In this document: one piece after another, positions 3,482-63,751 of the stretch
How the letters are laid out: every line of letters begins with the position of its first letter
Numbering within the stretch: position 1 is the stretch's first letter
Assembly (NCBI RefSeq): GCF_002105155.1
Contig: NW_019028979.1
Span: 310,001-374,000 of the forward strand
DNA length: 64,000 nt
DNA from: Lobosporangium transversale
Taxonomy: Eukaryota
Direction: 5' to 3'
Notes under the pieces: generated by a model
The model's input: only the letters and a program-made list of their open reading frames with translations
What the model was told of the DNA's origin: nothing
Databases searched by the model: none
Position numbers and translations under genes: made by a program

Positions 3482-5834
3482 CTACTGTGTGTGACCAGGA
3501 TGGCCGATCGAAATAAAGTGATGTCTCGTAGAAGTCGAAAGACTTCGAAGATCCGTCTCCGATAAAAGTGTGCATCGGTAGCGAATCATACTAAATTATT
3601 GAATTAAATAAAATAGAGATAAGTCCTGCTGACCATCCTTGCTGATTTGATATGCCATTATATCCATTTTTACATTTGCGCAATGGGAAAACTTACCTAT
3701 CACGCAAATCGTCAATAAGATCGTCTTGATCATACGAGTCATCATCAAAGCGATACTTGTCAAAGGCGTTGATACCATCGTACTGTAAGAACAGATCTTT
3801 GAGATTGTCGTAGTAACCATGTGAGTCCTTGAACATGTTTCTAGGTCTCGTAAACTGGCGGTCAATGTGAATACGACCACCACGGCCGACACGCTTTCTG
3901 AACGACATGTATTTGCCATTGCGTTGCTGAGGCAATATCTTGAAGAATTGCTGCGGGTATGGTACTGTGAATTGTTGATACGGATTCTGTAACGAGCGAA
4001 TATGTGTTTTTTAAATTATAAAAAAAAAAAAAAAAAAAAAAAGAGGCACATGGTTAATGATAAGGATAAAGTACTCCAAACCAGATTTAACAGATATACT
4101 CTTTACATAGTACGTACGTCAGTAAGATCCTCCCAGCCAACATCGTCCTCTCGGCGTTTAGCCAACTCAGATTCAATATTGGAGTGCGAAGAGCGGTCCT
4201 TTCTACCATCCTCTTGAGATGAGGTCGATTCACGGTCTGCGAGGAGGTTATGAGGGATACGAATAGTAGCGCTGGCCTCTCTTCTGTTCTTTTTCTGTAG
4301 TAAATAGGCGAGAAATTTCATTGCAAGTAAGTATAAAAAGATTTCTCATTATCTTCGTAAGTTTCGAACAAGATTTTCTTTTTCTTTTTTACCTTCTGAA
4401 TGTCTTCGTCATCTTCCCTGATACCAAGACTTCTCTTATATTCGCGCACCTTGCAGCGCTGATCGAAGATTGTGTGTTCGAGTACAAGCGATTCTTTCCG
4501 AACCTTCTCGCGCTTTGAGACCATCTCAAGCAGACTGCGTGCACTCTCCATCTCCATACGCAGCTTTCGCAGTTTCTCGATCGATTGCTGGTCAGTACGT
4601 CTGGTTTTGCGAACGGGCTTGCTTTCGCGGCGACGGAAACACAGGTATGGGTCTGCTTCGTTCCTAACAACCTCCTCAAACTATTAAAAGTTCCCCAAAA
4701 GTTAGATTAGTTGACTTGAGTTGAGCACTTTTAGGTAACAAGTCAATCATCATTAAACAAACTTGCCTTCAGTTGAGGGGTAATGACTTTACCACCTCTC
4801 TTGGATCTCCTTTCCTGCCACCATGGATACACAGACGCGGCAATGTTCTTGAGACCCAAGAGCTGTGGACCCGTAAATGTTGCCTTGAGATCTTCAAATG
4901 ACGGGATCTGGCCACTATCCTGTAAGTATCAGCATGAATTGTAAAGTAATAGTGAGTTACTATGCTGAGCACTGAAAACCGTGCCACAGCAGAGAACGAA
5001 GAAAAATGAGATAGAAACTTACCAGCTGCAGATAAGGAACGCGCTCATTAGTGATTTTTTCGAATTGCCACATGATTAGCTCAAAATGGTCTTCATCTAG
5101 TTTTTCCTCATCAGCGGCTCGCTTCTCATTAAATTCCTTGAGCCATTTGTCATCCTCATCATCCATATTATACGGACATCCGATACAATCCTCGACTGTG
5201 GATGAAAATCGGATGAGGGTTGAAGGCTCTGAGAAGGGGCGATTGTAGAAATCACGGTAGTTTTCAATTTTGCGGCTAGCATCGGGTGTAGGGATGTACA
5301 GTGATTTAGCCTCACCAGTTGTCGTCAGCAGATTGGAAGCAGAAATAGCTGCTTGCAAGTGATGTTCCTATTCAAACACGAGATGAAATGCTGTTTAACA
5401 TCTTGTATATATGCAATACATATACATGTCAGAACAGAGACGCGATTCAAGAGAAATCCACAAGAACATTTTATGAAGCGGCGAAGTCCAGCTGTTCAAG
5501 AGAAACTGAGACAGTCGCCCAAACACAACACTTTGAGAAAGCCCCTCCGAAGAAATGAGAAGATAGGATTGATGAAGGACTAATGCCCGTGTTTTTGCAT
5601 CCACTACTGTGGAAACGGAAAGGAAAAAAAATGGCGGGAAAAATAATATGTACAAAAATTTAACACAACGCATACCGCTTCTTCTTCCTTATCGACACCT
5701 GTCTCTGTCTGAGGAATACTCCGTTGCAAACTGACAGACTCATCGAGATCAGGGATATCGACTGCACGATAAACGCGCAGGAGTTGCTTGTTATTGATCT
5801 TGCGGTTCCTGAACCGGGCCCCAACGTTCTTCAT
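3482..5834 (-). CDS. EPL1: Enhancer of polycomb-like protein (NuA4 subunit), multi-exon
   Basis: N-terminus ARFRNRKINNKQLL...ETGVDKEEEA splices to EHHLQAAIS. Also YIPTPDAS, CPYNMDDEDDKWL, FELIMWQFEK, PYLCFRRRESKPVRKTRRTD and FRKRVGRGGRIHIDR, all typical of Epl1/EPC. Last exon 3590-3482. Confidence 0.9.
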
Positions 5835-7437
5835 GGTTGGGCTGGCTCTGGAGGGTGTTGATACTACGGGAGCAGGAATTTTGGCAGGATAGTAAAAAAT
5901 AGTGTTTGTACGTGGGATTTGAGTCACGTGGCTGCTCAGAGTCAATTTTTTTTTTTTTTTTCCTTCCTAGTCAAGTCAGTTTTTTGAAAAGTTGAAAGGA
6001 AAGCACAGCAGAAAGGTTGATTTTTCTATCAGAAATAGTGAATGAAAATGATTATGAAATAGGATGGGGTCATTAGATGAGAATGAAAGATGTGAGTGAG
6101 ATGCAGATGCTCTGATTAATGATTATGGCCAGAATGATGCGTCGCTGGAGAGGGAATTGTCAATGAAAGAAATGAGGGCGAGTCAAATGAAAATTTGTGT
6201 TCGAGGGGGTGCGAATATTCCACCTGTGAATACTGCGTGACAAATTTTTTTTTTTAGTTGTCCTTTGATGTGTGCAGAGACAAAAAAAAAGGTCGGGCGT
6301 AAAAAATGATTTTATTTCGGGAGGGCTGGAGCGGGGTTTATTTTTTTTTTGCGCAATCTGCAGAAAAATCTGCTCTCCATCTGACAACACTAAATTGGCC
6401 TAGCCAATCAGACTAACCCGTGATTTGGACTGCTCACTGTCTATTCACGCGTCCAAGTGCAATATCAGATCATCTATTAGGAGCACCACAACTTCTACAG
6501 GAGGGAGTCGCTACGTAATGCAATCCCAAGCCTTGCAGACCATTTCCCGGGACAATACACGGTAAATGAAGTCTGGTATGTATATTAACCCTCTCTGTGC
6601 ATATACTATTGAAGTTTGCTTGTTGAGAAAAAATGTTTCTCAATTTTGATACGCACCATCTAGTCTTTCTAACTCAAGCAACCCTACTGTTGAAACCAAG
6701 CCTATTGCTAGATTCACTTCTTCCTCCTCTTGCATCCTCGAATCGTACTACTTTATGTAGGGTGCCCGTGCCTTCTTCAATCCCATCATTATTCTCGCTT
6801 CCCTGATGTTTTGTATTTATTACTCCTTTAACGTTTCTCATTGTATTTCAAATCAAATTTTCAGGGGAGGGTCTCAAGAGGATAGATAACAGGGCTTTAC
6901 TTCACGAAAGGGCGTCCTTTCTTATATACTTGCGTTAGTCGGTCTTGAACAAAACTGGGAACATATTTCTCTTCCTCGTTTTCTTCCTCATCCTCGCCTT
7001 CAACCTCGCTCTCATCTTCTTCTCCACTCTTATTCTCTTCTGTATCCCCCTCTTATATCTTATATCTCCTCTTTCCTGTCTTCCTCTTCTCTTCTTCTTA
7101 CTCTTCCTGGTTCTGTCTTTAATTCAGCACAGAGAATATCTTTGTGGCTAGGCGAATAACTATGGTCAGACATTGAGGCTTGCTTTTCTTCTAGAGATGC
7201 CGAACTGCACATGATGCCGTTTCAAGCGTGTTTTGGTCTCTGGAGTCGTGGTCTATGATAGCTCTGCGCGGTAAGACGAAAGCATTGTTGGTTTCGAGGC
7301 CATTGCTGAAACCTGCAGATTTGTGAATGGATCTATAATGCCATTCTGAGTATGATATGACTGTATGAAAGATCGTTCGCTTATTTCTGAATATACATCC
7401 CAGCTATTAGAAGGAGCAACCTCATTGATGCAAGGAG

Positions 7438-8655
7438 TCATCGAACCTTGCAAACTCGCTGACAGGACATCGTTGGGTGGGTGCGACAGTGTGAGTGCGA
7501 CAGTGTGAGTGCTTCCGTATCAATCGTTAGACACGAATCCCCGCTAGATTCTAGGTAGTATATCCGCTCTTCTTGATATCGTTTCAGCTTGAGTTTTGCT
7601 AAACGCTCTTTATCTGCCTCAATAATCTCCCTTGTTGTAGGCACATCAACACCCCTATCAAGGCTATAAACCTGTGCGCCGTCTTCTGAGTGCGAATCAG
7701 GCCTACTAAAGCTCGCATTGATACTGCTACGGATGGTAGTCTTGACATCGACATCTTCCCAATCTCCTTCAACGCCAAGGCTTTGTTTCTCAACTAAACT
7801 ATTTCTATAGCCTCCATGCTTTTGCCTTGTATTCGCCATAGACCCACAGGATCGACTGAGTAAGAATACAACTGCTGGAAACAACCATGGAACCACAGCA
7901 ATTCCGATCCATGGGACATTGCAACACAGTAACCATACACCAAATACAAATCCCTGCATTTCAATACCATACAGAGATATCCATGCTCGTTCTTCCCATT
8001 GTTTAAAACCAACTCGCACAAGATAGGGCTGTAAGAACTCGTACATCAAGAGCTGTTGCAAAGTGAAGATTTGAAGACCCCAAATGAGAAACCGAGGATA
8101 GATGACGAATACTGCGAGGATGACTAGTTTCCAATACACATGCTGGGTGCCCCTGTATCTCAAGCTTAAATCGATAGTCACGAGCGCAAGTCCCTTGCAA
8201 AGTATTGATAGCAATCCACTATAGTCGATGAGTTTACGGAGGATCATGGTCGAGATATAGGCCATGAGGATTCGTCGGTAATATCGTTTTGTTTGAGAGA
8301 AATATTCAAGCGCAGGTTTTGCAGTAATGTCAGGCCGTTCTGAACATCCAAGAAGTTGTACTGTATTGATGAAGATTTTATCCCATAGAAAAGGATAAAG
8401 GTATCGACAGACAAGGATGGAAGGGTAGAAAAACGGGTTATGTACAAAGTAAGGCCCAATGGTGAACGGTATGGATTTGATGACGATATGAATGATACAG
8501 TAGATTGCTGAGCACTGAAAGCTTAGTGCAAGGATAACTCTTTTTGTCTCTGAACCATTTTTGTGCTGAAATACCTCCAAGAGGTGTTGTAAGCCAGACC
8601 CAAACTGTGACACCCATTCTCTAAGGTTAAGTGCCAACTGTTTGATATGAAACAT
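7438..8655 (-). CDS. Hypothetical multi-pass membrane protein (405-aa intronless ORF; possibly C-terminally truncated)
   Basis: Long ORF with several hydrophobic segments in the first ~265 aa and a hydrophilic tail. Coding-like but stop-broken sequence continues downstream. Confidence 0.55.
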   Translation of the reverse strand: MFHIKQLALNLREWVSQFGSGLQHLLEVFQHKNGSETKRVILALSFQCSAIYCIIHIVIKSIPFTIGPYFVHNPFFYPSILVCRYLYPFLWDKIFINTVQLLGCSERPDITAKPALEYFSQTKRYYRRILMAYISTMILRKLIDYSGLLSILCKGLALVTIDLSLRYRGTQHVYWKLVILAVFVIYPRFLIWGLQIFTLQQLLMYEFLQPYLVRVGFKQWEERAWISLYGIEMQGFVFGVWLLCCNVPWIGIAVVPWLFPAVVFLLSRSCGSMANTRQKHGGYRNSLVEKQSLGVEGDWEDVDVKTTIRSSINASFSRPDSHSEDGAQVYSLDRGVDVPTTREIIEADKERLAKLKLKRYQEERIYYLESSGDSCLTIDTEALTLSHSHCRTHPTMSCQRVCKVR

Positions 8656-8771
8656 GTGTGTGAGAAAAAGATGGAGATGAGATGCCGAGATTAATCAGAT
8701 TGGATGAGAATGAGAATCGAAAAGGCGTGAGAACGCCAGAAAGAAGATTCCTTCAATCAAAGTGCAGACCC

Positions 8772-8792
8772 TGACCAATAGGCCATTGGTCA
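8772..8792. promoter_or_regulatory. Inverted pair of CCAAT boxes (TGACCAAT-aggcc-ATTGGTCA) in a short divergent intergenic region
   Basis: 8-bp perfect inverted repeat containing CCAAT on each strand, lying between divergent ATGs at 8655 (-) and 9037 (+). Confidence 0.35.
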
Positions 8793-9036
8793 ATTAGGCC
8801 CCATCGAAACAATAGGAGTATCTTTAGTGCTGCGGTAAATAGGTAAATAAAGAGATGTTGGTATTAGACTTACTCTTAAAATACACGCGCCAGGTAAAAG
8901 ATGCAGTAAGTGTCTCTTGACGAAGAAGTTTAGGGGGAAACAAAAAAGTTATCAGTTGACTTTCATCCATTGCCCCATTATTTTCTCAATTAACACTTTT
9001 GACGATCCCTTTTTTCACAATTATTGCACACCAACC

Positions 9037-9512
9037 ATGGCATCCATCCCAATCCCTCGTTATTACCGAACTCCGATTTACATTCCTTCGAAAAATGACG
9101 GCTGCATGCTTGAAGTCTGTCTGTCCATCCCAACAACAATTTCTTCCCAACCCCGAATCTACACAGGAGTCGTTATCGCTCATCCATATGGTCCCCTTGG
9201 TGGTTCATACCACAATAATGTGGTTGGTAATCTGTTGCAGTGGTTCGAAACCTATCAGCTCCAAGCTGCAATAGATGACAGCAATGATAGCGGCATTACA
9301 GCGACTATGTCCTCTAGCAGTGCATCGCTAGAGACAGGAGCTACGCCCGCAGGCAAGAAGAGCTCAAAAAAGAAGCATTCTGTCCCACTGTCCTGTGTAA
9401 TTTGCGCTTTCAACTTTCGGTAATTAAGCCTTGTTTAATGATTTAAGAATCCTCGTCTTCTGACGTAGCCATTCCTCTCTCTTTCCCTGCCACCCAAGAA
9501 ACCACCATTAAC

Positions 9513-9560
<48 letters not shown>

Positions 9561-10434
9561 GTGCGGCCGATCCAAGGGTAGGACATCATGGTTTGGAGGG
9601 GCAGAACGCGACGACTATCAGACTATCGTTGATTTTCTACAGAGTGGCTCTCACTCCAGAGCAAGTCCCCATTTAGGCCACCAAGATTCTGATATTGGTT
9701 GGTCTGGCAAGGTCTATGATGACACTGGCCGCCAGATTGATTCACCACGATTACCATTTTTCTCGCGGTTTATACTTTGTGTACGTTTTTATTGCGTAAC
9801 AGAGAGTTGACAATTCTCCCTCGCAACCGTGATTGACAATATCCATGATTCAACACATGTCCTGATATTGCGTAATACATAGGGTTATTCATATGGCGGG
9901 ATGGTCGCGTCGACAATTCCGCCCCCTCTCAGAAATCCAGCTGATCCAAGCTTGGGACATTTGCCCACCACATACATCCTTGTCAGCTATCCTGCCGGTG
10001 TATCTTGGTTTCTGACCTGTGGTGCACATCGTTCCTTCGCAAAACGCGCTCGAGAGATTCTTTTTCAAGGAGATCCAAAGCAAGAGACGGCCATGATGGA
10101 AAATGGAGAAAGAGATAATGAAAGTAGAAGTGAAAGTGGGCGAGACAGGAAAAACTCAACAATAAAAGCTTATTTCATTACAGGAGGGCAAGATCAGTTC
10201 ACGAGCCCAAACACCCTTCTAACCTGGCTCAAGACGAATACAGGATTAAGTCCGCCACCAGTACCAACACCCAGACAAGCCAAGGGGGATGGCTCGAACA
10301 TTCCTTTGACTTTAAGACGACCAGATGGGGCCATTCATCTGGATGTGCTTGAGGATGTAGACCACTTTTGGTTAGACCGTGAGCAAGAGTTGTTGGATAA
10401 GCTACAGCGCTGGTGGACCGAAACGCATGTGTAA
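9037..10434 (+). CDS. Alpha/beta hydrolase fold protein, 3 exons (9037-9419, 9558-9780, 9883-10434)
   Basis: HPYGPLGGSYHNNVV, spliced FNFRGCGRSKGRTSW, nucleophile elbow GYSYGG, GGQDQF (Asp) and VDHFW (His) give a complete catalytic triad. Confidence 0.85.
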
Positions 10435-10716
10435 AAAAAGGTAACCCCAAGACTACACATTAATATGCAAATATGCATAAATCGCCTTCGAAAACGTATG
10501 AATAAATAAACTATTGGGCGTTTCTCATGTCGCGTCGCTTTACGTGGACAATGGCGTCATTAAATTAATGAAAGCCAAACTTCTATATATTCATGACCAC
10601 AAATAGCCAGTGGATCACAAATAGACAGCCCATCAGTCTCTCAATGGAGTGTATTTATATGTATTCTGTATTCATTTTTTGCATGAATTTAGACTATGGT
10701 GTCTTAAAGCCCAGTA

Positions 10717-10949
10717 CAGTCTGCCTTCAAGAAGTGGGCCATTTTGACCCACTTGCTAATGGAATTTGGCGCCTATTTAATTCAATCGAATAAATAAAAA
10801 AACTAGCATTTAATATCAGCCCCTTAATAATGCAGAAATTATTAAGGGACGTATCCGTTAGCTAGTTTGCAACCGATTTCATTAGGCTCTACAAACTCAC
10901 TGGCAAGTGGGCCATTTTGACCATTTTGACCCACTTCTTGAGTAGACTG
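10717..10949. mobile_element. Non-autonomous TIR element (MITE), Tc1/mariner-pogo-like, TA-flanked
   Basis: Left end TA|CAGTCTGCCTTCAAGAAGTGGGCC matches the reverse complement of the right end, TA|CAGTCTACTCAAGAAGTGGGTC. The motif AAGTGGGCCATTTTGACC occurs near both ends. No coding capacity. Confidence 0.75.
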
Positions 10950-12922
10950 TAGATGAAAAAGGTAACTCATGGCTGTGGCGAGGACTCTTTCACCTTATTA
11001 GTTGTACAAACAAAACGACAGAAGAAAGAGGTTGATGTTAGACTAGCCGTGCTTTTTTTTTTTTGACACTCGTGACAGAGAGTGCGCTTTTGTTTGTGTG
11101 TTTGTGAGTTTTTGTACTTTCGGTCAACGGAAAAAGCCAAATGAGAGACAAGGGGGCGTCGCTTTAGTGGATATTCATCATAACCCCTATTTCAAGCGAA
11201 AATGATTGTTTCTGTGAATGTGGAATGTTTGTAAAGCAAAATAGCAAAAACAGCTTAAACAGCATAACTCGCATTATTCATTCTTTAAAAAAGCAAAGAT
11301 GTGGTTGCACAAGTTCTCTTCTTTCACCCCTTGACTTCTCAACGCAGCAAAGGCGGCGGAAGCATTGCCAGAATCAGTAAAAAAAGGTGCTGTTGTGCCT
11401 TGATTCTTCTCTGCGTGTACATTAATAAAAACAAACAGGAAAGGAAAATAAACGAACAAAATCCTGTTCCCGCTGGCTGGGAAAAGGCTCTTTTTTTCTT
11501 TTTTGTTTTTTGCAAAGGAAATGACAGGTCGTTTGTTTGTGCACGAATCCACTTTTTCTCTCATTACTGGTCTGCAGAGCACCTTCCAACATGCAGGCCA
11601 GCAAGTAGCAGGAGTAGGGGTAAGGACGGGGAGTGGAAGAGGAGGGTACAGTCCCTGTAGTGAATCAAAATACCCTGTATGGAAAAAGTTTCTCAAAACA
11701 TTCGTGGTTGGAAACGGATCAAGGCAGGAAACAGCAAGAAAAAGATGTCCATGTGGATCATTTGAGACCCATATTGTTCTTTACGTTTCTTATTTTGTCC
11801 AATCGATCCACCCACATCGTTTTTCTTCTTTTTTGTTTTCAACTCTAAACAATACTTACAGTCTGCTAGATATTTTTGTGTGCGTGAGCGTATGTGGATG
11901 TATGGATTTAATAGTTGGACAGTTAGGAATGCATGCTCAAGCATGGGATAGCATGGGAATATCCGTACTCTGCAAAGGCTACGTGGCATAGAGCACCAAT
12001 GACAAAACGCTCATTCTTTCTCTCTCTATTCCTTTTTTTCTTTTTTTTTTTTTTTTTTCTATTAGGCACTCGACCATCATAACCATATATTCCATGTTGC
12101 AAGGGCGCAAAAGGAAGAGATCAATGGATGTTAGGATGCAGGATTATCGCAAATTAACCCAAGGATGATCAATACAGTATGAACGAGAGTGGTGTTCAAG
12201 GAGAAGAGGAAGGGGTAGGAAGAAGAAAATAGAAAAAGAAGAAGGAAGATCCAGTCAGGATATGGGGTCCTCACGATTCAAATGTAAGCCATACATCACT
12301 TCAGCCTAGACCAAGAGAGCTCACTCCTACATTCATCTGGACACATTGAGTGGTTGATGAATAAAAAGGGTCATGACCATGGCTCTAGCCCTCAGAGACT
12401 GCAAGGTTTCCCTTGCAGAAAGTAGAAGGAACCAAGGATTGCATTGTGTTGATGGTCTAGTTTTTTTGTTTTTTGTTTTTTAGTTTGAAATAAAAAAAGA
12501 ACAACGCACAGTTACAATCACTGAACCCACACCTGCACTTTGTCACTCCTCCGATCTTTTTTTTATCTTTCTGTTTCTTTCTCTCCCTCTCTCTCCTTTT
12601 GCTCTTAGCATTCAACTCGTTCAATTCTCTCATTCATCCACAGTACATTCACTCTCTCACTCTCATTCTCATCGTCATACTTATCCTCATTCCCATCTCT
12701 TTTACTGCTTCCATCCTTTTTTTTTTAATAGTTTTACCGTCTCTTTTTATCCTCTTACTCGCTTCTATCTTCCCCACTCTGACGCAGGCACGGAAGAAGA
12801 GAGAGTCTGAGTGAGTGAGTGAAATTGTATGCAAGGAGAGCAACGATAATAGTAGCAATCTTATCGCACTAAAAAAAATTTTCTGCTTGCTCAACCGTTC
12901 AACTGTCTACATTTTGTGCTCA

Positions 12923-14506
12923 ATGCTCCGTCAGAGTCGCCCTCATACTCCCCCCACTTCTACTAATATCAATGTTGGCCCGAGAAATCCCTCCCCAGGT
13001 CAACAAGCAACTCCCCATCCTTTCCTTCAGTCACCTACACATGCACGCTCCAACTCCGGCACTATGATATATCCCCCATTTTCGCCTTCATCACAGCCAC
13101 GCTCTTCGCACACAATCTCAAAAGACGCGTCCTCTTTCAGGAAGGACCCTTCAGCTCTATTAACATCGGCTGAAACGGCAACAGCAGCACAACCTTTGTC
13201 ATCAGAACCAGAGAGATCAAGTATGCTTTCATTTGCAGCTGGATACAGTTTACATTTACAAGCAATAGTGTCGCCTACCATTGCCAAGCCTATAGCTGTC
13301 TATCCTCAGGAACACCCACAACGTAAACGGTTTTCACCACGCTTTAGTGGCTCTTCAGTGTCCTATACAACATATTCGTCTGCGCTTGCTTTAACATTCC
13401 ACCAGCAGCAGCAACTATTGCAGCAGCATCAACAACAACAGCAGCAGCAACGCAAGTGTCACCATCCATTGGTTGACCGTTTAGATAAACATAGTGACAA
13501 CAGCCTACCAAGTTGTGACCCGCACCAACACTATGTTTATAATCTCGACAACCGAGCACAACATCGTCATACCTACACTTCTCCACCTTCGCCTTGTACT
13601 GCTCTTGACGCGTCGTCATGTCACTGTTCGCGACCAAGTCGATGCTCCCACTCACACTCATACCCCCATCCTCCGTCTCAATCCTCAATCCCTTCAGGCA
13701 ACAGTGCCAGTCATGTCAGCATATCGTCCTCTTTAAGCGTTGCATCTGCCTCAACAGAGACAAACTCCGTTGCATCAGCCACTACGGGCATGGATCAATG
13801 CTCCCCCATCCTTTCTCATGCTATTACGGCTGCATTATCAGACGTGATCCTCTTGGGAAAGCCGGCAGCAGCGACAGCGCTAGTTGCGGATCACCATGCA
13901 GTGTCCCTTAATTCACAAATGCTTGATTTTAATTCGCCTGTGGAGAACGGACTTGTCTCTGTGCCCTCCTCACCCCATAGTAGTACCAGGACACCGTCTC
14001 CTATGCGAAGTAGAAGGACGTCTTCGTCATTGGCTTCACCGTCTTCATCTGCTACATCCGCTTTATCTGTTGAGGATAACGAACGGGACTATGAATGTTG
14101 CTACAACGACTCTGTATTGTCGTACTCTTCCTCAGCTTCCCTGCCACTTAAACCGTACCTGAAAGGGCCCGATACTTTGTTGATGCAAACACAACAAACA
14201 CAGCATCAGCAGGCACGTCAACAAAGACCCAGCAAACAAGCACGTTGTCATAATCATCATCTCCAAAGACGTCATGCACAGCAAGCGCTAGCAGCACAGA
14301 GTCAGGGACAACAATACGTATCTTCAAAAATGGTTCCTTCAGGCACCTATAAGCGTTCCTGTCCCTCACCAAACTCACCACAGGCGATTGCCCAAAATTC
14401 TACTCGTTACATCCGGTTCCTGTGGCTACCCTTGTTGCCACTGCTAATCCTTGCATTAGGCCCAACTTCAACCAAATTTGAGACCCCTACCAGATATGCT
14501 GTATAG
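12923..14506 (+). CDS. Hypothetical Ser/Pro/Gln/His-rich low-complexity protein with a hydrophobic C-terminal segment
   Basis: Uninterrupted ORF of about 527 codons from ATG 12923, with a polyQ tract and FLWLPLLPLLILALG near the end. No recognisable domain. Confidence 0.55.
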   Translation: MLRQSRPHTPPTSTNINVGPRNPSPGQQATPHPFLQSPTHARSNSGTMIYPPFSPSSQPRSSHTISKDASSFRKDPSALLTSAETATAAQPLSSEPERSSMLSFAAGYSLHLQAIVSPTIAKPIAVYPQEHPQRKRFSPRFSGSSVSYTTYSSALALTFHQQQQLLQQHQQQQQQQRKCHHPLVDRLDKHSDNSLPSCDPHQHYVYNLDNRAQHRHTYTSPPSPCTALDASSCHCSRPSRCSHSHSYPHPPSQSSIPSGNSASHVSISSSLSVASASTETNSVASATTGMDQCSPILSHAITAALSDVILLGKPAAATALVADHHAVSLNSQMLDFNSPVENGLVSVPSSPHSSTRTPSPMRSRRTSSSLASPSSSATSALSVEDNERDYECCYNDSVLSYSSSASLPLKPYLKGPDTLLMQTQQTQHQQARQQRPSKQARCHNHHLQRRHAQQALAAQSQGQQYVSSKMVPSGTYKRSCPSPNSPQAIAQNSTRYIRFLWLPLLPLLILALGPTSTKFETPTRYAV

Positions 14507-14869
14507 TTTTTCTTATTCCCTACTCTCTTCTTCTCTACCTTCACATTGCATCTACTAATCCTTTTTGATTTAATCCCATAACCACTGTATAATCTCTTCA
14601 ATTTTACACTCGGAAAAAAAAATACCCTCTTTATATTTTCTCCCTGCATTACACCTTTATATTATTGCTCGTGATTTACTTTACTACTATTCCTATTGTC
14701 TATGAAATAATTAAAAATGATAATAAAAAAAAAAGTAAACGTTCTATGATCAAAATGAATCAATGTTAAACATGATGTAATGGAAACACGCCAACAAAAA
14801 AAAAAAGTTATGACTTGAGTTGAGAAACATGACAGAGATAAGAAACAATCAAAACTTAAATCCATGCTC

Positions 14870-15030
14870 TGTCCAGGGACCTGAATTGGTTTCCTTTTTT
14901 GAATAGACGCGATTCAATTATCTGTTGATCTGTACGGTTTTTAAAGTTAGTCCAGAAATTCAGGGGCAAAAGATTAGAGAGGATACAGGAGACAGAACTT
15001 ACAAATTTTTTGTGGGTGTGCCGGCACCCA
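14870..15030 (-). ncRNA. Putative omegaRNA scaffold / right end of the Fanzor element
   Basis: Lies at and just beyond the 3' end of the Fanzor reading frame. Stems: TGGGTG/CACCCA (15013-15030), CCTGAATT/AATTCAGG (14880-14887 with 14957-14964) and TTGAAT/ATTCAA (14899-14917). The functional call is inferred from position only. Confidence 0.35.
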
Positions 15031-15470
15031 AATACTTGTGTCTAGCATCGTGCGCTCTGCAGCCGGAGCAGGCGACTCTTCCGTGGGCTTGTACTTTGCA
15101 GGCCTCTCTTGCCTCTCAATTTGAGCAAGACCGATTCTTGCGATGTTTTCCGCCCCTACTGCGTCACGGTCGAAGAATACCTTACATGTCCGGCAATATT
15201 TAGAGCGAGGGTACACCGTCTCTAAAAAGCTATCGCAGAGGGGTCAGGGACAGCGGGCGCTGGTGTAAAATTCGTGCGCTCCTACAGCGAAGTGTCCTCG
15301 TGCTTTGACCTAAGCGTTTCAAATGGCAGTCGTTTATTAGCAAGGGTTCTATAGCTTTCCAGCTTTTCTTACTTTTTTTAAAAAAAGCCATACCTGTGTG
15401 ACAAGGTGTCTCGTTATAGCAGTGTGCTTGCTGGGAACTCCTACTACTTTCAAAGGACCCTCCATATACA
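14974..15470 (-). pseudogene. Fanzor (eukaryotic TnpB-like RNA-guided nuclease) C-terminal remnant with a spliceosomal intron at 15310-15393
   Basis: Spliced translation: GVPSKHTAITRHLVTQ|VKARGHFAVGAHEFYTSARCP*PLCDSFLETVYPRSKYCRTCKVFFDRDAVGAENIARIGLAQIERQERPAKYKP. This contains RuvC-II E-x-x-TS-x-x-C, Zn-finger cysteines and RuvC-III DRD-x-x-x-A-x-NI. In-frame TGA at 15244-15246. Confidence 0.85.
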
Positions 15471-18193
15471 GCATACAGTGTCGATGTCGATCCTTTGTTA
15501 CACAATTTTGTTTTTTTTCAGTTTCTTTTGCACTGGCCCTTGCTTTGTGCTTTGTGAGGAATTTAATGAATAGAAGAAGATTTATAATTTTGAACAGGGG
15601 TAATAAATGCATTGACAGATATGACTTGGTGATTATATCCTTGTCAAAGGTAACAACTAAAGAAAAAAAAAAAAAAGCCTTTTTTATCAGAGAATGCCTT
15701 CATATGATGCTCTTTGCTCCAACAGCCCCAGTACTATTGCGTTAAAGCAGAGATATTCGTTGACTATCAGATTCCGGCATCAATGGCGGAGATAGGAGTG
15801 ATGTAGTTGCATGCGCTTATTGCTTGGAGTAAAAGCTATCTAAGCACCCTTTCTTACTGGACGATACCTTGTTAATGGTGATATTGCGCAGCGCCTTGTG
15901 GATGGAGGGAGAGCAGAAGCGAGAGTGGTGGTTTTTGGCGGTCGTTTGGTGTGTGTATGTGTGAATTTGATAGTTAATACCAATCGCCAAAACATATGCA
16001 TCTAGAAATACAGAAGCGAGATTGATACCGACGCGTCTGATCCTTTCCTAGGGATTGTTACAACCATGGTATGATTGTGGAGTGGCCACCAAAATAAAGT
16101 TTGTTTGGAGGCACCAATGGAAAACGCTTGTGTTTTGAACAAAAAAAGACGCCACGATGTAAAATGTGTTTATACATGTACAGAAACCAAAGAGATGCTT
16201 CAGCTGCTTATTCGTGCACACAGTGATTGACGAACAAAAAAGGAAACAAGATTTGCGAAACAATAAAAAAAAAGCCCGCGATGAAAGAAGGCATGTGCAG
16301 ACAACAAATAAACACAGCAACTGTTTGCTCACATACATTTTTTTCACCGTTGTGTCTGTATCTCTTCTAAGCTTTCTGTCTGGCCGTTTAACACAAGGAA
16401 CCCTCAGAAAAAGAAATACCTCGCATGATTGGTGCCAGGTCTGAAAACAACAATAATGCAATGCTGTACGTGGAAGATAGGGTCTAGAAACTATACCATT
16501 GATCACAACTGCTACTCATGCTCTCTTGCCAAGGACTTGAACAGGCATACCAACCCTTTCTTCCTTGCTCTCATAACCGCTCACATCCTTTCGATGCATT
16601 CTTTCGCCGTTTATGTCCACTACATCTGAACCACACAAGTTCACCACTCACTCCAACAGAGATATTTGTATCACCTTGGGTATGATATGTTGCTGTGGTT
16701 TCCTCTGGTTTCAACAGGCCCAACAAACTCTATTAGCAATGTTTACCAACCCAGATATATCAAGGGAACACAAGAAGACGAGGAAGCAAATGATGTGACA
16801 AATCAAGTCTTGCCGAACAAGCTCCATGGTGCGGTAGAATGAATCAACTCAGATTGCCTTCCTTTCAAGTCGAGACTACGGCGGCGAATATTACCACTGC
16901 TATTACACTAGTCAATAAATAAACGATACAATGGACTCCCAAGCGGATGCTAGGATCATGCGAAAATCTTCATAAGTTTTTTATTTGCACAAATAAAGAA
17001 GCCAGGATAGCTCCATGACAATTTAGTTTTCGGTCATTTATTTCGACATCGAAATAAAATTTCAAGACAATGCCCATGGATTGCTGGATTTTAAGCCCAT
17101 TTATAATGGCAAATTTGCCCTTGTTACGGACGAAGGGATAAGGTTCGATATCATCTTAGGTTGAAAATTGACTGCAAGCCAGCCTAGCTTCTCAGGTTTG
17201 TACCAGGTCACTACATTTCAGTTGCTAGATTTTAAAAAGGAAGTTTGAAGGCTTAAATACGTACGGCCAACGCAACTCATTTCAGAAGAAGCACAGAAGA
17301 AGCATAGAAACAGGAAAAGGGAACACCTCGACAACTGTTTTATTGCTGTAATCCTTATCTTCCATCAACATTTTGGAGCTACTTTTTGGCTACCTTTTTT
17401 TTTTGTTATCTACTTTTTGGCTACCGTGGACCACTCCACTCTGAATCAGTAACATGATACTATTCTTTAGCGAGGTTATCCAGCTGCCTGGGATCATCGA
17501 TCAAAAGACCGGTTCACTCAGATCTATTACCAAAGCCTTTTTTTTTTTTTTTTTTTTTTTTTTTCTTTCTTTTACTGACGTCGCGACTTAATTGATTAGT
17601 CATGTTCGAAAAAGAGCGTAATCAAGCCCGATCAACCTTGATTTCATCTTCATCCACCTTAAACCGCTCTTTTTGTGCAGTGATGCAAGCTAGTCGCCAT
17701 TTTTTGGTTAAACTGATTCAATAGTCACCAAAAAATTGTGGAATGAATATGCTAAACCTTGCTGTACGTAGCATTCTTTTTCTATAAGCACTGAAAAACA
17801 CTAAGCAAAAAATGAATGTCATATTTTAAAAGACAAATAACCAATTCTATTTGACATTACACTGCTCTTGATAAACAAATTTGTTCGAGATAAAAAAAAT
17901 TGATCGAATGAGATGGAAGTGGACCACAAGATATTACAAATGTAAACATCATTTGTATATCATGGATGTGAATAGATATATTTATACCATCTCAAACAAT
18001 ATGTAGTAGTGTGGGGAAACAAACTCTATCCAAACTGTTCATTAGCGACATTCTTCATGCGAACAGACTCGATATTCCTTATTTTATATGACAAATAAAA
18101 TGGTTCGCCGATTAATATAACTTGATTGTCCCACAAAGAGTCTTAAAGTTCATATGCATTCAGCGCCATGTTAATTAATAACGCGATATTTAG

Positions 18194-18380
18194 TATCCTC
18201 CAACTCGTTTGGTCAGTGATTCATATATTTTCTATTCAAAAACGATGATTGAATTGATTTGGTGGCTGATTTTGACATTTCACCCTCCGTGACGAACTGG
18301 TGCCAAGGAATATAATTGGCTCCCAATTCAATCAAGACTATTCAAAAATATATGAATCACTGACCAAATGGGACGGAGTA
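18194..18380. mobile_element. MITE copy 1 (Stowaway-like end ...TGGGACGGAG|TA)
   Basis: 24-bp perfect inverted repeat TTTGGTCAGTGATTCATATATTTT (18208-18231 / 18345-18368). The right end reads TACTCCGTCCCA on the opposite strand. Confidence 0.75.
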
Positions 18381-18560
18381 TAAATATATTTGTGGCCAAG
18401 TGGCATGAATAAAAAAAGCGATAGTGCTCGTTAACTTCTACATGTGTTAAGTACTGGAACACATTACACATGTATATTTATATATATATATATAGATACA
18501 GGGTGAGATTCCTAATTAAATATATCGCTCATTATTTCGGGTTTCGCGTCATGTGAAGAT

Positions 18561-18591
<31 letters not shown>

Positions 18592-18777
18592 CGTTGGAAC
18601 AACGACTCAGCGTACATGTGTAACATCAAAAGCAAATAACTCCAATGTGTACAAAAAAAAGTTTATCATAGACAATCATTCCACCTACAGCTTCAACCTC
18701 CATATTATCCTTCTACCCTGTTCAAATCTCTTGATAAAATAAGTTATACTACATTTTTATACAAAATAATATATGTA

Positions 18778-18952
18778 TAGTCCGTTTCATTTGGTCACGA
18801 TCCCTTATATTTTTTAAATACTCTCAAGGATATTGACAGCCAATTAACTCGCTTGTTCCAAGTTCATCAGGCAGTGAGACGCCACTAAGACCAATTTAAT
18901 CATCGTTTTTTGGATTAAAGTTATATGGGATCGCGACCAAATGAAATGGGTG
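18778..18952. mobile_element. MITE copy 2, same family as 18194-18380, opposite orientation
   Basis: Imperfect ~28-bp TIR CCGTTTCATTTGGTCACGATCCCTTATA versus CCATTTCATTTGGTCGCGATCCCATATA. The internal segment AAAAACGATGATT(G/A)AATTG...GTGGC is shared with copy 1 on the opposite strand. Confidence 0.7.
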
Positions 18953-19265
18953 ATATATAAATATATCAGTATTGGTACACGGTACACGTAAAGCATTGGT
19001 GGCGCAAACTAAATCAAGAAGATATAGTAAATTTATACATATGAATGTATATATATTTCAGCGAAACTTATTTTCCAGATAAGACATCTCTTACCATATT
19101 TTGTTGATTCAATAAGGATGTTGAAAATAAATGAATATGGATGTAAATTCTCTGCCTTTCTGGTTTACGTTCATTTCCATGGTTCATCGACAAAACATTA
19201 TTTCAATGGAATTTATCTTTTTGTTTACTGCTGTGTCAATTATTTTTTTTTTTTTTTATTTTTTG

Positions 19266-19703: not shown

Positions 19704-21178
19704 TTAAAACCCATCTAGTCGACAGATAGGGAGATAGTACTTGTCTAAGGTCCAGTATGCACGCTTAACACCATTCCATTCCTCTTCTTTCAAGCCGATA
19801 TCCATTTCTTCGTACTCAACTGTAAAGCCCATTTCGCTTAGTTCCAATTCAGAAATCCGATTATACACAGCATGGAAGAATTCGTTTGTGGCACCAAGTC
19901 CATTAAAGTATGAATACACTCCTCCTTCTTCAAGATGGTTTGGCACAACCTCATGGAATGCTCTCAGGTCCTCATAATATTCACCAAAGGTATCAAAGAA
20001 GATCCCATCATAGACTTCCAATTGATCCACTACATCTTGCCATCGTCCAAAGAGGATCTTAACACCTGGTTTCTTATCCCACCCTTCCTTGATCATATAT
20101 GCGTATACATCTGGGTGAGCTTCAATAATTGTGTGCTGTACAGGCGATCGCCTCTGGAGTTCTTTGTCAATCAAGCCTAGCCCAAACCCTACATTCAGTA
20201 CTCTTAGTCCTTCTTCGGGGCAAATCACTTCGGCATGACGAACCATTAAGGGTAATTCCCAACCCATCATCACACCATTCCTTTCAGCATCCAGTAGCCG
20301 GTCACCGTCGTCAGTGTAGTGGAGTGGTTGTGACAAATATGACGCGTTGGGTACTTCTGAGGCTGATTCTACCTTTTGCTTCTTTGATGCAGGTTCTGTT
20401 GATGGTTTGTCCTTTTCAGATAACGAAGAATTGGATGGTTCAACATCCTCAGATGTAACATTGACTAATGCCTCAACCTCTTTCTGATCGACGTGCTTTT
20501 CCTCCTCTTTCTCTTCCTTCTCTTCTCCTTCTTGTTCTTCTTGTTTTTCCTTCAATAGCTCCGCCTTGAGTTTTCTCTGCATGAGTCCCATCAAGAGTTC
20601 TGTGCGGACCCCTTCTTCTAGCAGAAAATCGTAAATCTCAGGTTGATTGAAAGATTTTGCATAATCGCCTACGGATTTGTAATCATCATCTACTAAATTC
20701 CACGGATGACCATAGCTCAATAATAGCTTGACAATCGGTAGGCTCCCAACCATAGTCGCAAAGTGAAGCATGGTCCTTCCGTGAGCCGCGCGGGCGCTAA
20801 AAAAAAAAAAAAGAGGGATGATGATAATGTCAGCCGATATGCCGATATGTGCCTCTGCTTTGAAGATTATGCTAATGATGTATATTTTCTCGACCCTGTC
20901 CTTGCTCCAATTGCTCTTGCTCTTGCTCCCTGCGCCCCACCTCCCCCACTATTTTCCGTTTCCCGTTTGCCCTGCGCAATCTTTTTTTTCTTTTTTTTTT
21001 TTTTGTACCTGTGGTTAGCGCCTTCTTTGAGCAGCTGTTCCACCTTGTTAACCTTGCCTTCAGCCACAGCCTGCATCAATTCCTGGCTCTTGGCAACCTC
21101 CTCACTTGTGGCCTCAATGACTTGCTCTGTTCGGACCAAGTTACTCTCGGGCACAGGATTGCGTTGTGATTCTTCCAT
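19704..21178 (-). CDS. RMT2: Protein arginine N-methyltransferase 2 (ankyrin repeats plus type IV PRMT), 2 exons (21178-21009, 20796-19704)
   Basis: Ankyrin-like LHFATMVGSLPIVKLLLSYGHPWN; GVMMGWELPLM, VLNVGFGLGLID, HTIIEAHPDV, YDGIFFDTFGEYYEDL, YSYFNGLGA. The intron preserves the frame. Confidence 0.92.
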
Positions 21179-61140: not shown

Positions 61141-63180
61141 TTATTTATGTGACACTTTTGAAGGCGATGGCGACGTTGACGATAGGATGATATCTTTGTA
61201 GAGAGGCTTTGACCAAGAAAGCATATCCATATAATCACAGTGGGGAGCTGTATGGGTTTCATCATCACCTTCATCCTCTACACTTCTCCATCCACTACTA
61301 GCATCTGGAGCCCGGTATAGATATTCTGGTTCCGTACTGGTATTCCTATCAGGAACCTTAGAAATAGCCATGGCAGGTGCCTTCTTTGTCATATCCCTCT
61401 CATCTTCGTCCCTGTTCTGGTCCTGGATTTCTATCCTTGCGTCTCCTGCCTCCTGTGTATCATCTTTACAGGCCTCATTATTATCTTTCTGTTTACCCAT
61501 GTTGAGATAAGGCCCCGGTAGCCTCTTGATGACTTTGCCTTCAAAACAAAGTACCGGTCGACTCACCCATTCATTTTCTCCTTGTCCCTTGCTATCGTTA
61601 GCAACCCACCTTGTTCCGACCTGCACTCCATGCATTACCTTCTCCGCCGCTCGGTTCCACATCAACTTTAAACACTCCATCTTCTCTGTATCAATCACTA
61701 CCAATCCCATGGGCCAGAGTGATTTCGCATAGGGCAGCAAGGCTTGCCTCGTAAAATCAGTCGATACCGCCAAGATTGCCATCGTCGGCTGGGTCTCATA
61801 CGATAAGGTCCCTTGTAGTTCCCGAACAAACTTGGGTCCAACCTTGGAACTCACCATCTTGCATTGAACAATCACCTTCAGATGGCGAACCAGATCTCCT
61901 GGTTCAGGCGATGCACTTAAGGGCAAAAACCAAGTGCCTCTCAGGTCCACTCCCAGATCATTATTGCCTGCAGATCGTTGTGTATAAATCCCAAGGTATT
62001 TTCTCAGGACCTCTTGGGTCTGATACTCAAATAATGTTCCACGATAGATCGTGCTTCCTGTGTTGTGGTTAAGGCCTTCAAAACTTGTAAGGTCATTATG
62101 TGAGCCGCTGCCACCGCTTCTATTCTCTTGATCATTTCTGTTCTGAGCACGGCATTGTTGTACATCGCGATTGATGTAGGGCATAGAGGAGTGGATGTCT
62201 CTTGGAAAAGGTGCGGGCTCAAGCTCTGGGGACTCTGTCCCATTGCTGATAGAGGCGTAACTTTGATAGGTCATAGGCAATGAAGTGTCGATGGTTTGTA
62301 GTCCCGACAGAACCAATGACGTTGGAAAGTAGTCTCTTTCATCCAACCTCTTCTTGGTTCTTCGCCTTCTCAGTATGGGTTCTGACGGTAACAGCGATGT
62401 AGCTGCTACTGCTGACAATGGTATCGACGCTTGTTTTTTAGAAGCAGTTTTATTCGTCTGTGTGGCACTCAGGGTTGTTTTCTTTTGTTTATCCGATGGT
62501 TCTGCCGTCGATACGGAGGCATTTAGATTTCCCTCTTCTAGTAATCTCGAGCTTGTTTTCGTCTTTCTAGCTCTTGTTTTCCTCGACAGTGACGGTGATG
62601 GCGACGATGCTGTTGTTGCCGCTGCTGGAGTTGCTAACTCTACAGATGTATTGTTATCACTGCTCACCAGAGTATCTCCCTCCTCTTCTGTTATTTTTGA
62701 CTTTGTCTTCCTGGGTTGCTTTGGCTTTTTAGGACCCGGCGATCCTTCTTCCATAAGCATAGCGGTGCCACTCTCATCTTTGACCTTTTTATTTCGCGTT
62801 ACCGCCTTCTTTTTTCTCTTTGGCTGTTGTTCTAAAAACGGCGTTGCTTCCTCTTCTGCTTCCGTTTCAACTATGGACTCTATTGCTGATATAGGTGTCA
62901 CTAACGGTGTCGGTGATGGTGATGATGATGATGATGATGATGATGACAGCGGTGGTGACGCGTAGATAATTGTAGATAGTTCAAAGTCAACAACGGTAGG
63001 AGCAGAATGTACAGTAGGGGTGTCAGTAGCAATGGAGGAGCGGAATCGGACCTTGTTGTTATTGGATTTCATATAGTAGCTACAGCTACATGGTAGTCTT
63101 AGTCTTTCTGCTCCTCTTGCTCCTGCAAGCTGTTTGCTAGTGATTATTGCTGTTGCTTTCCTGAATGTAGTCTTGATCAT
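61141..63180 (-). CDS. RRG7-like (DUF2034) PD-(D/E)xK restriction-endonuclease-fold protein with a long low-complexity N-terminus, probably mitochondrial
   Basis: GTLFEY...RSAGNNDLGVDLRGTW...IVQCK...KVGPKFVRELQGT pattern, a basic presequence-like N-terminus, and an intronless 679-aa ORF. Confidence 0.72.
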   Translation of the reverse strand: MIKTTFRKATAIITSKQLAGARGAERLRLPCSCSYYMKSNNNKVRFRSSIATDTPTVHSAPTVVDFELSTIIYASPPLSSSSSSSSSPSPTPLVTPISAIESIVETEAEEEATPFLEQQPKRKKKAVTRNKKVKDESGTAMLMEEGSPGPKKPKQPRKTKSKITEEEGDTLVSSDNNTSVELATPAAATTASSPSPSLSRKTRARKTKTSSRLLEEGNLNASVSTAEPSDKQKKTTLSATQTNKTASKKQASIPLSAVAATSLLPSEPILRRRRTKKRLDERDYFPTSLVLSGLQTIDTSLPMTYQSYASISNGTESPELEPAPFPRDIHSSMPYINRDVQQCRAQNRNDQENRSGGSGSHNDLTSFEGLNHNTGSTIYRGTLFEYQTQEVLRKYLGIYTQRSAGNNDLGVDLRGTWFLPLSASPEPGDLVRHLKVIVQCKMVSSKVGPKFVRELQGTLSYETQPTMAILAVSTDFTRQALLPYAKSLWPMGLVVIDTEKMECLKLMWNRAAEKVMHGVQVGTRWVANDSKGQGENEWVSRPVLCFEGKVIKRLPGPYLNMGKQKDNNEACKDDTQEAGDARIEIQDQNRDEDERDMTKKAPAMAISKVPDRNTSTEPEYLYRAPDASSGWRSVEDEGDDETHTAPHCDYMDMLSWSKPLYKDIILSSTSPSPSKVSHK

Positions 63181-63751
63181 CCTTTGTGAATGAGAACAAG
63201 TTCAGGAACGATAGTTATAGACGTTTATACATATTTTAAGCGCACCTTTCCTTTGGGACAATAATAAGCTCCGAGTAATACAACGCACGCAGGTGGTGGC
63301 TTTGCCCATTGTGTCCTACCTGATTCTACTGCCATTGTGGGGGGACAGTATTAATAAAGAGAAGACAAGACAAGTGGGGACTAGCGAAGAGCCCTTATTA
63401 TGCAGATAATAAGGAAAGGAAAGAAGAGAAGGAAGGAAGGATGGAGATAAAGTGTGTTCTTTGGATAGTTAAATATGGACAAAGCATTGCAAAAGCAGTT
63501 TGATCAAAAGATGGGCTTAGTTTGCATCGTTATCAGTTATTGAAATGCCATCCATCGTCCCTCAAGTGCATGGCTGAGTTTTAAAATTTACATGTTTCTT
63601 TAAGTAGCATTTATATATTTATGACACATTGAATGTGTGTATTCTCAGTTACCATTGCTTCTTCAACTCAATTCTTTCCTTCCCATTCCTTCTTTTTGTC
63701 TCTTTTTTTTTTTTTTTTTTTTTTTTTAATCTAGTGTAATAATTCATCACC

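What the first reader, a model, noticed from the sequence alone, without database searches (positions are those of the whole stretch)
14974..15470. Hidden intron-containing Fanzor (TnpB-like RNA-guided nuclease) remnant
Seen in sequence: removing an 84-nt phase-0 intron (CAG|GTATGG...CTAAT...CTTAG|GTC, 15393-15310) joins two unremarkable ORF-track fragments into GVPSKHTAITRHLVTQVKARGHFAVGAHEFYTSARCP*PLCDSFLETVYPRSKYCRTCKVFFDRDAVGAENIARIG...RPAKYKP. Established knowledge: E-x-x-TS-x-x-C...CxxC...DRD-x-x-(A/G)A-x-NI is the RuvC-II / Zn-finger / RuvC-III signature of IS200/IS605 TnpB and eukaryotic Fanzors. The catalytic Glu (codon 15271-15273) and the DRD motif (15163-15171) are intact. Inference: this is a dead copy (TGA at 15244-15246, plausibly from CGA) of a spliced Fanzor family that may have live relatives elsewhere in this genome.
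Basis: partly seen in the sequence, partly recalled or inferred. Interest (0 to 1): 0.9.

Follow-up and report, generated by a model that had tools for sequence, protein, structure and literature searches.

The report
Dead flap-nuclease–Fanzor fusion transposon copy
This is a broken, internally deleted copy of a multi-copy fungal transposon whose sibling copies encode a Fanzor-type DNA cutter, predicted to be RNA-guided, joined to a flap-nuclease-like head that likely helps the element get copied back into the sites it cuts.

Summary
The 84-nt intron, catalytic Glu, zinc finger, DRD and TGA are all there. The intron sits at the same codon boundary in three diverged metagenome relatives. The stretch is the last ~115 codons of a Fanzor1 gene, inside a 2,218-bp TA-flanked element (14921-17138) that has lost the rest of the gene. 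At least 38 sibling gene models exist in Lobosporangium transversale; 14 keep all RuvC and zinc motifs, but none is full length.

(1) The family's gene begins with a FEN1/XPG-type 5' nuclease with intact acidic residues; 13 of 13 relatives of 1,000 aa or more share this head. I found the fusion in no paper text searched, although such proteins sit uncommented in a published hit table. This scan noted the same fusion earlier in smut fungi. (2) A second, 73-nt spliceosomal intron lies in the right end, where the guide RNA should be; one probably-RNA contig lacks exactly that intron.

Verdict: new variant of Fanzor1; this copy is protein-dead; activity is untested.

The parts
14919..14920 (.). 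TA, likely the right target-site duplication
   Evidence: TA follows the end in 4 of 4 right flanks seen (the window and 3 loose ends of run X7); sequence
14921..17138 (-). Internally deleted, non-autonomous DNA transposon copy, 2,218 bp, with weak 14-bp terminal inverted repeats (9 of 14 match)
   Evidence: Summed contig depth rises from 80-170 to 4,000-18,000 (X1) and from 8-13 to as much as about 800 (X2, X4) between these limits; single-copy flank contigs stop at 14945/14946 and 17114. A 9-of-14 match has P about 0.005 among random post-TA 14-mers
14921..15041 (-). 121-nt right end between the family stop codon and the element end; predicted guide-RNA (omegaRNA) scaffold region
   Evidence: Position by analogy with SpuFz1 (PMC10432273 section 7); no Rfam match; folding not better than shuffles, z -0.2 to +0.3
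14930..15002 (-). Second spliceosomal intron, 73 nt (GTAAGT...GACTAAC...TACAG), whose acceptor lies 9 nt inside the element end
   Evidence: The full consensus occurs in 0 of 2,000 dinucleotide shuffles. One X7 contig joins 15003 to the 11 bases 14929-14919 and runs on into another flank (table 7)
15013..15030 (-). 6-bp GC-rich hairpin followed by an A-run and TTT, just before the second donor
   Evidence: MFE structure, z -1.1; similar hairpins with other stem letters follow the stop in L001 (z -2.3) and L002 (z -0.2); weak lead
15042..15309 (-). Last coding exon of the Fanzor1 gene: alternative RuvC-II Glu (15271-15273), C4 zinc finger, DRD (15163-15171) and a basic NLS-like tail; broken by TGA at 15244-15246 and a 2-nt deletion at 15051/15052
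   Evidence: 82 of 83 residues identical to six sibling models
15310..15393 (-). 84-nt phase-0 coding intron
15394..15461 (-). Remnant of the preceding exon (GSFESS / GVPSKHTAITRHLVTQ), with a 2-nt deletion at 15441/15442
   Evidence: table 4
15461..15462 (.). Breakpoint of the internal deletion, which removed the FEN1-like head, REC, WED and RuvC-I (roughly 950 codons, estimated)
   Evidence: Loose ends at 15461 in X2 and X7 continue into the family's GDKGVLVVGL coding sequence (one search read); no sibling or relative protein matches upstream except P0028
15462..17138 (.). Left arm of the element, 1.68 kb, multi-copy; no transposase recognised
   Evidence: No Pfam family at E below 0.05 in six frames read through stops; depth
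16518..16819 (+). Frameshifted copy of a 111-aa ORF of unknown nature (sibling model P0028), pointing to the left end
   Evidence: tblastn 97% and 80% identity; 1 of 1 candidates in the protein search
17139..17140 (.). TA, likely the left target-site duplication and part of the predicted TAM
   Evidence: TA is present in 2 of 3 left flanks seen; the third loose end does not fit cleanly

Best explanation
The stretch is the dead 3' end of a Fanzor1 gene in an internally deleted copy of a TA-flanked fungal DNA transposon; intact copies are predicted to make a roughly 1,100-residue protein that would use a guide RNA from the element's right end to cut the empty site left by excision, with its FEN1/Exo1-like head likely resecting the cut ends so that recombination copies the element back.

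Shown: the remnant, its lesions, the multi-copy element, the Fanzor1-like predicted fold, and the FEN1-like head on the same gene in siblings and relatives.

Inferred from characterised Fanzor1/TnpB: a read-through transcript supplies the scaffold plus about 15 nt of flank as guide; the TAM ends in the left TA; a DDE transposase elsewhere in the genome does the excision.

Inferred by analogy only: the head's job is 5' end resection or flap trimming at the break.

The 73-nt right-end intron likely sets the balance between mRNA and guide RNA, since splicing removes 60% of the scaffold region. The window copy cannot make the protein, but it keeps both ends, so it could still be moved in trans and could still donate a guide RNA, like the ghost loci of Spu-1.
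For: Fanzor1: the model of sibling P0032 (pLDDT 87) has SpuFz1, PpFz1 and GtFz1 as its top 7 Foldseek hits (best E 2e-10); VIA Z 15.4, rmsd 3.3 over 314 residues against 8gkh. Motifs D210-PG, E379 six residues before the first Cys, and D415 are present, as PMC10711439 defines them.

Head: sibling P0197 matches yeast Rad2 (E 1e-5) and keeps D37, D85, E169/D171, D189/D191 and D242. P0196 runs from the same N-terminus through a basic linker into sequence 45 of 48 identical to P0032, and its neighbouring locus tag is the C-terminal piece P0012. 13 of 13 relatives of 1,000 aa or more match a leave-one-out profile of the head (E 7e-18 to 2e-61). Their joint profile hits FEN1 (E 1e-15), XPG, Exo1 and SpuFz1 (E 4e-6). 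The 1,053-aa relative folds as head, disordered linker, then Fanzor1.

Element.

Analogies: vaccinia G5, a FEN1-like nuclease, is needed for double-strand break repair (PMC9415595 passage); restorative homing is shown for TnpB (PMC13565253 passage).
Against: No activity, guide RNA or TAM was measured. No full-length model of this family was found (longest 456 aa of 38), so its fusion is pieced together from P0197, P0196, P0015 and P0032, all of them gene predictions. No transposase was found in the window copy. The inverted repeats are weak. The right end does not fold better than shuffles. The coding intron was not seen spliced in X7. In the whole-protein fold search the FEN1 hits are weak (best E 0.01; that relative lacks the first ~100 residues of the head). 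An intron-containing algal Fanzor1 bound its RNA but did not cut in a published test (PMC10530073 section 10). Nothing here separates resection from other uses of the head.
Confidence: 0.55

Rival explanations
1. Same element and fusion, but the FEN1-like head works on RNA: it trims the long read-through transcript to the mature guide RNA, or removes RNA from the R-loop so the enzyme turns over.
For: X7 contigs run 250 nt or more past the element end into different flanks, so a guide would have to be cut from a longer RNA. FEN1-family enzymes cut RNA flaps and RNA:DNA hybrids (own knowledge).
Against: Headless Fanzor1s make their guide RNA (SpuFz1), and TnpB's RuvC processes its own (bioRxiv 2023.11.20.567912 passage).
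Confidence: 0.15
2. The head serves the element's movement rather than homing: it processes flaps or gaps at insertion or excision, or the fusion protein is part of a transposition route of its own.
For: No transposase was recognised in the 1.68-kb left arm; the inverted repeats are weak; the head is kept across distant relatives.
Against: TA on both sides points to an ordinary DDE transposase acting in trans. The deleted middle could hold one. No whole genome was available to search.
Confidence: 0.15
3. The protein acts mainly against other DNA: guides taken from dozens of flanks direct cutting, and the head degrades the cut DNA, suppressing rival elements or incoming viruses.
For: Many copies give many guides; a 5' nuclease next to a break would favour degradation; the head's nearest atlas clusters are XPG-like proteins, mostly of giant viruses (score 0.95; a lead only).
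Against: Each guide is by construction the element's own flank, so its natural match is the empty allele. No foreign targets were examined.
Confidence: 0.08
4. The fusion is a gene-prediction artefact: a FEN1-like gene and a Fanzor1 gene lie side by side and are merged by predictors; the remnant is an ordinary Fanzor1.
For: All sequences are predictions; this family's models are split into pieces.
Against: 13 of 13 long relatives have the same order, with a conserved linker motif and basic tract. The same architecture is visible in Mortierellaceae rows of the PMC10711439 Table S2.
Confidence: 0.07

Closest known systems
SpuFz1 / Spu-1 element (Spizellomyces punctatus Fanzor1; PDB 8gkh)
   Same: Best structural match (Z 15.4, 314 residues, 20% identity). 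TA-flanked multi-copy fungal element with no transposase between its ends, partial and ghost copies, and a short non-coding right end.
   Different: Spu-1 has one ORF of 633 aa, 30-33-bp inverted repeats and no reported extra nuclease. This family has introns, 9-of-14 repeats, a FEN1-like head and an intron in the right end.
PpFz1 (Parasitella parasitica; PDB 9cf1) and the Mucorales Fanzor1 families ROr, PBl, MCi
   Same: Fanzor1 fold (Z 15.0, rmsd 4.0, 315 residues); early-diverging fungi.
   Different: The passages read give MuDR, Crypton-like or Harbinger-like carriers with 6-12-bp duplications, and no FEN1-like domain.
FEN1/XPG(Rad2)/Exo1 5' nucleases and viral FEN1-like proteins (vaccinia G5)
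   Same: Profile match and conserved acidic residues plus the helix-turn-helix NDY motif.
   Different: Here it is a domain of a transposon protein, fused to an RNA-guided-type nuclease; below Pfam's XPG_I cut-off.
IStrons (IS607/IS605 with a group I intron overlapping the omegaRNA)
   Same: A splice acceptor at the transposon right end overlapping the guide-RNA region; there, splicing and guide formation exclude each other.
   Different: Here the intron is a 73-nt spliceosomal one in a 3' UTR, removes only part of the right end, and its role is untested.
Mortierellaceae Fanzor HMM hits in PMC10711439 Table S2
   Same: Same clade and, in several rows seen, the same XPG-like N-terminus.
   Different: Listed as raw hits; the main text has no PIN, XPG, flap or exonuclease mention. 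The single Lobosporangium row is another family.

Membership tests
Fanzor/TnpB | D-X(125,275)-[TS][TS]-XX-C4-X(5,50)-RD (Bao and Jurka 2013) | tested here: met
   Sibling P0032: D210, T382-S383, C386/391/405/408, R414-D415. The window holds only the part from TS onward.
Fanzor | DPG at RuvC-I | tested here: met
   CDPG in 29 of 38 sibling models; deleted in the window copy
Fanzor | Catalytic Glu six residues before the zinc finger (alternative E) | tested here: met
   HEFYTSARC in the window and siblings
Fanzor1 | Fanzor1 fold with extended REC, WED and RuvC | tested here: met
   Predicted models; the top 7 Foldseek hits are SpuFz1, PpFz1 and GtFz1 for both models; Fanzor2 9b0l ranks 12th and 9th
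Fanzor1 | TDG motif in WED | tested here: inconclusive
   TNG in this family; TDG in relatives P0055 and P0060
Fanzor1 | Carried by a eukaryotic DNA transposon with ends and a target duplication | tested here: met
   Sharp multi-copy limits, TA on both sides, weak inverted repeat
Fanzor1 | omegaRNA from the right end bound by the protein | not testable with these tools
   Only contigs, no small-RNA reads; folding uninformative
Fanzor1 | TAM-dependent RNA-guided DNA cleavage | not testable with these tools
   Needs an assay
Fanzor2 / IS607-like | No terminal repeats and no target duplication | tested here: not met
   TA in 4 of 4 right and 2 of 3 left flanks
Fanzor2 / IS607-like | Serine recombinase TnpA in the element | tested here: inconclusive
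   None in the window copy, whose middle is deleted
FEN1/XPG/Exo1 5' nuclease (head) | Acidic active-site set, helical-arch K/R and H3TH motif | tested here: met
   P0197 motifs; 12 of 13 long relatives have E-x-D and DSD, the thirteenth lacking that stretch; alignment to FEN1
FEN1/XPG/Exo1 5' nuclease (head) | 5' flap or exonuclease activity | not testable with these tools
   Needs an assay
Tc1/mariner carrier | TA target duplication | tested here: met
Tc1/mariner carrier | DDE transposase and clear terminal inverted repeats | tested here: inconclusive
   No transposase in the window copy; repeats 9 of 14; no genome to search

The most novel reading that the evidence does not exclude
A natural one-chain cut-and-resect homing enzyme: an RNA-guided Fanzor1 fused to an active FEN1/Exo1-type nuclease, whose guide RNA is made or destroyed by spliceosomal splicing of the transposon's own right end, a eukaryotic parallel to IStrons.
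Probability: 0.3. Interest if true: 0.85.

Novelty: new variant of a known kind. Interest (0 to 1): 0.62.

Why it matters
Fungal and intron-bearing Fanzor1s are known, and a dead fragment alone would be ordinary. The family behind it matters for two reasons. First, what Fanzors do for eukaryotic transposons is still open. A natural fusion to a 5' nuclease of the end-resection family would point to break-induced recombination, and it makes that directly testable with head-dead and RuvC-dead mutants. It would also be a natural counterpart of engineered nuclease-exonuclease editors (own knowledge). Second, a spliceosomal intron overlapping the predicted guide-RNA scaffold would tie guide biogenesis to host splicing, which I found described only for group I introns in bacteria. 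The many near-identical copies with different flanks give a ready set of natural guides.

Tried and rejected
No whole genome was held, so copies, empty sites and a trans-acting transposase could not be searched. The TAM is undetermined: only 3 left flanks were seen, and the 2 clean ones share nothing beyond TA.

No RNA holder was listed by record; X7 is RNA by guess only. No joint for the coding intron appeared in X7 (one joint row was dropped by the tool, and contigs show presence only). Summed contig depth is not a copy number and is used only for the limits.

The remnant alone against solved structures gave only a weak Fanzor2 hit, E 0.29. Profile A2 against them was swamped by Gly/Ser linkers.

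Left arm: no Pfam family, no match to the head profile; the atlas look-up of P0028 did not complete. No related locus in viral contigs for A2 or P0197 (these find close relatives only). No Rfam match. Right-end folding was no better than shuffles, and the hairpin alignment with three loci was poor.

General CpG decay was rejected: about 6 of 24 listed changes toward A or T are in CpG, and CpG is not depleted.

A Helitron reading (A|TC...|T) was considered; TA on both sides and no CTRR end argue against it. Fanzor2/IS607 and an unrelated zinc-finger family were rejected.

Literature: Fanzor+Lobosporangium 0 papers; Mortierell+TnpB+transposon 0; Fanzor+XPG 0; Fanzor+FEN1 3 listings on engineered tools, not read; two searches gave nothing on the fusion among the papers listed; one search gave IStrons as the only relevant hit. 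No look-alike earlier findings by sequence or in this genome.

Full report
Observation. The exon after the intron matches the Pfam TnpB/Cas12f zinc-finger family (E 4e-6). A protein search gave 27 hits among 40 candidates, 26 of them Lobosporangium transversale gene models, up to 99% identical. The window is therefore likely from that Mortierellaceae fungus or a very close relative (inference). No genome was held.

The coding intron is real by homology. 30 of 38 sibling models splice it. Diverged proteins are colinear across it. In 3 of 4 metagenome loci, an intron of different sequence and length interrupts the same codon boundary. In the one RNA-like run it was seen only unspliced.

The element. 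Contigs of four runs were laid on 14400-17600. Depth jumps some 40- to 200-fold between about 14920 and 17140; summed depth is not a copy number, but the limits are sharp. Single-copy flank contigs match the window with no differences in X1, X2 and X4. The ends fall at TA dinucleotides, 14919-14920 and 17139-17140, giving 2,218 bp. TA is kept in 4 of 4 right flanks and 2 of 3 left flanks seen. The termini match at 9 of 14 bases (P about 0.005). At 15461 sibling contigs leave the window sequence and continue into upstream coding sequence, so this copy has an internal deletion. It also has a TGA where siblings read CGA and two 2-nt deletions. The 1.68-kb left arm shows no known domain, only a frameshifted copy of a 111-aa orphan ORF.

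The family. I counted 38 gene models: 24 of the 27 hits (dropping one Entomortierella protein and two of a sister family) plus 14 more from the cluster; 36 share one locus-tag prefix. 14 of 38 keep DPG, HEFYTS, four cysteines and DRD. None exceeds 456 aa, and 22 start at the same internal Met, which in locus L004 lies just after an intron. Many models dodge frameshifts, some at A-runs; whether these are decay or assembly errors could not be tested.

Class. The model of sibling P0032 (pLDDT 87, pTM 0.84) is closest to the three solved Fanzor1s. The DPG and alternative-Glu signatures of PMC10711439 (passages) and the motif of PMC3627910 (abstract and parts 1, 2 and 4 of 6) are met.

The head. 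A profile search of 1.84 billion representatives gave 708 hits at E 0.001 or better, of which the best 150 were listed. 13 of those are 1,000 aa or longer. All 13 match a leave-one-out profile of a shared N-terminal domain, and 11 of 13 also carry PF07282. An alignment of 19 long relatives hits FEN1, Rad2/XPG, Exo1 and GEN1 with its first 250 positions, and Fanzor/TnpB with its last 250. This family has the head too. P0015, P0196 and P0197 share its N-terminus. P0197 holds the whole domain with its acidic residues. P0196 bridges the head, the basic linker and family-specific sequence (45 of 48 identical), and the next locus tag is the C-terminal piece. A 1,053-aa relative folds as head, disordered linker, Fanzor1 (pLDDT 81); FEN1 hits in that search are weak. 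The atlas places the head nearest XPG-like clusters, mostly viral, a lead and not evidence of transfer. The hosts of the unnamed representatives are unknown.

The second intron. Between the family stop (15042) and the element end lie 121 nt, the place of the guide RNA in SpuFz1 (PMC10432273 section 7 and passages). 73 of them (15002-14930) form a consensus intron, found in 0 of 2,000 shuffles (the pattern was set after seeing the sequence, though it is the standard consensus). One X7 contig joins 15003 directly to the 11 bases 14929-14919 and runs 255 nt or more into another flank. X7 behaves like RNA: it covers the neighbouring gene to 14697 but not the intergenic flanks. Still, its status is a guess, 239 loose-end rows were not shown, and a DNA-level loss of the intron in one copy is not excluded. 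Donor-like sites follow the stop in all four related loci, but only L001 is convincing (exact GTAAGT after a hairpin and A-run); such motifs are common by chance.

Mechanism. Most likely, an intact copy gives a read-through transcript that supplies both the protein and a guide ending in flank sequence. The protein cuts the empty site after excision by a transposase acting in trans, and the head resects or trims the ends so that repair from another copy restores the element. Guide-directed cutting is inferred from Fanzor1; homing from TnpB (PMC13565253 passages); the head's role from FEN1/Exo1 biology and vaccinia G5 (PMC9415595 passages). The right-end intron recalls IStrons (bioRxiv 2023.11.20.567912 passages). 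None of these steps was shown here.

What is known. [quoted passage not shown] Table S2 of PMC10711439 lists 96 Mortierella, 35 Entomortierella and 1 Lobosporangium matches; I saw 26 of the Mortierella rows, 2 of the Entomortierella rows and the Lobosporangium row, with long cells cut. Several begin with the XPG-like head, but the main text does not mention it; nor do term searches of PMC10432273, PMC10530073, PMC13565253 or PMC5499597 (passages). Library searches found no paper on the fusion. Subscription papers, Repbase and the Saito supplements were not seen and may bear on this. Two earlier notes of this scan report the same fusion in smut fungi; I read them after reaching this result and did not test their loci.

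Verdict. A protein-dead copy of a new variant of Fanzor1. The remnant is ordinary; the FEN1-like fusion and the spliced right end are what deserve work. Interest 0.62.

Noticed in passing
window 18194-18962: Cluster of 38-50-nt inverted and direct repeats (arms 18194-18231/18345-18382, 18341-18390/18768-18817, 18769-18814/18917-18962; 76-87% match), possibly a decayed MITE-like element 1 kb from the Fanzor element.
   Followed up: no
window 16518-16819 (+): Orphan 111-aa ORF in the element's left arm, opposite in direction to the Fanzor gene; no relatives found outside one sibling model.
   Followed up: partly
window 14968-15030: A right-end variant replaces 61 nt (hairpin and second donor included) with 12 other bases; single-copy depth in X2 and X4 but depth 214 in the RNA-like X7.
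   Followed up: no
P0018/P0047/P0048 cluster; XP_021883162.1: The same species holds a sister family (9-member cluster, about 40% identical, up to 834 aa) and at least one more distant Fanzor family.
   Followed up: partly
L004 499-596: An intron just before the MSDIEFF exon, which may explain why 22 of 38 sibling models start at that internal Met.
   Followed up: partly
window 14935-15041 and 16968-17181: In X2 and X4 both end regions are about twice as deep as the coding remnant, a weak hint of shorter ghost elements that keep only the ends.
   Followed up: no
window 12815-14503 (+) and 19707-20948 (-): The element sits between a low-complexity ORF with no Pfam match and an ankyrin-containing ORF that looks like an Rmt2-type methyltransferase (label recalled).
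   Followed up: no
window 61144-63201 (-): ORF with RRG7 and Mrr restriction-endonuclease-like matches.
   Followed up: no
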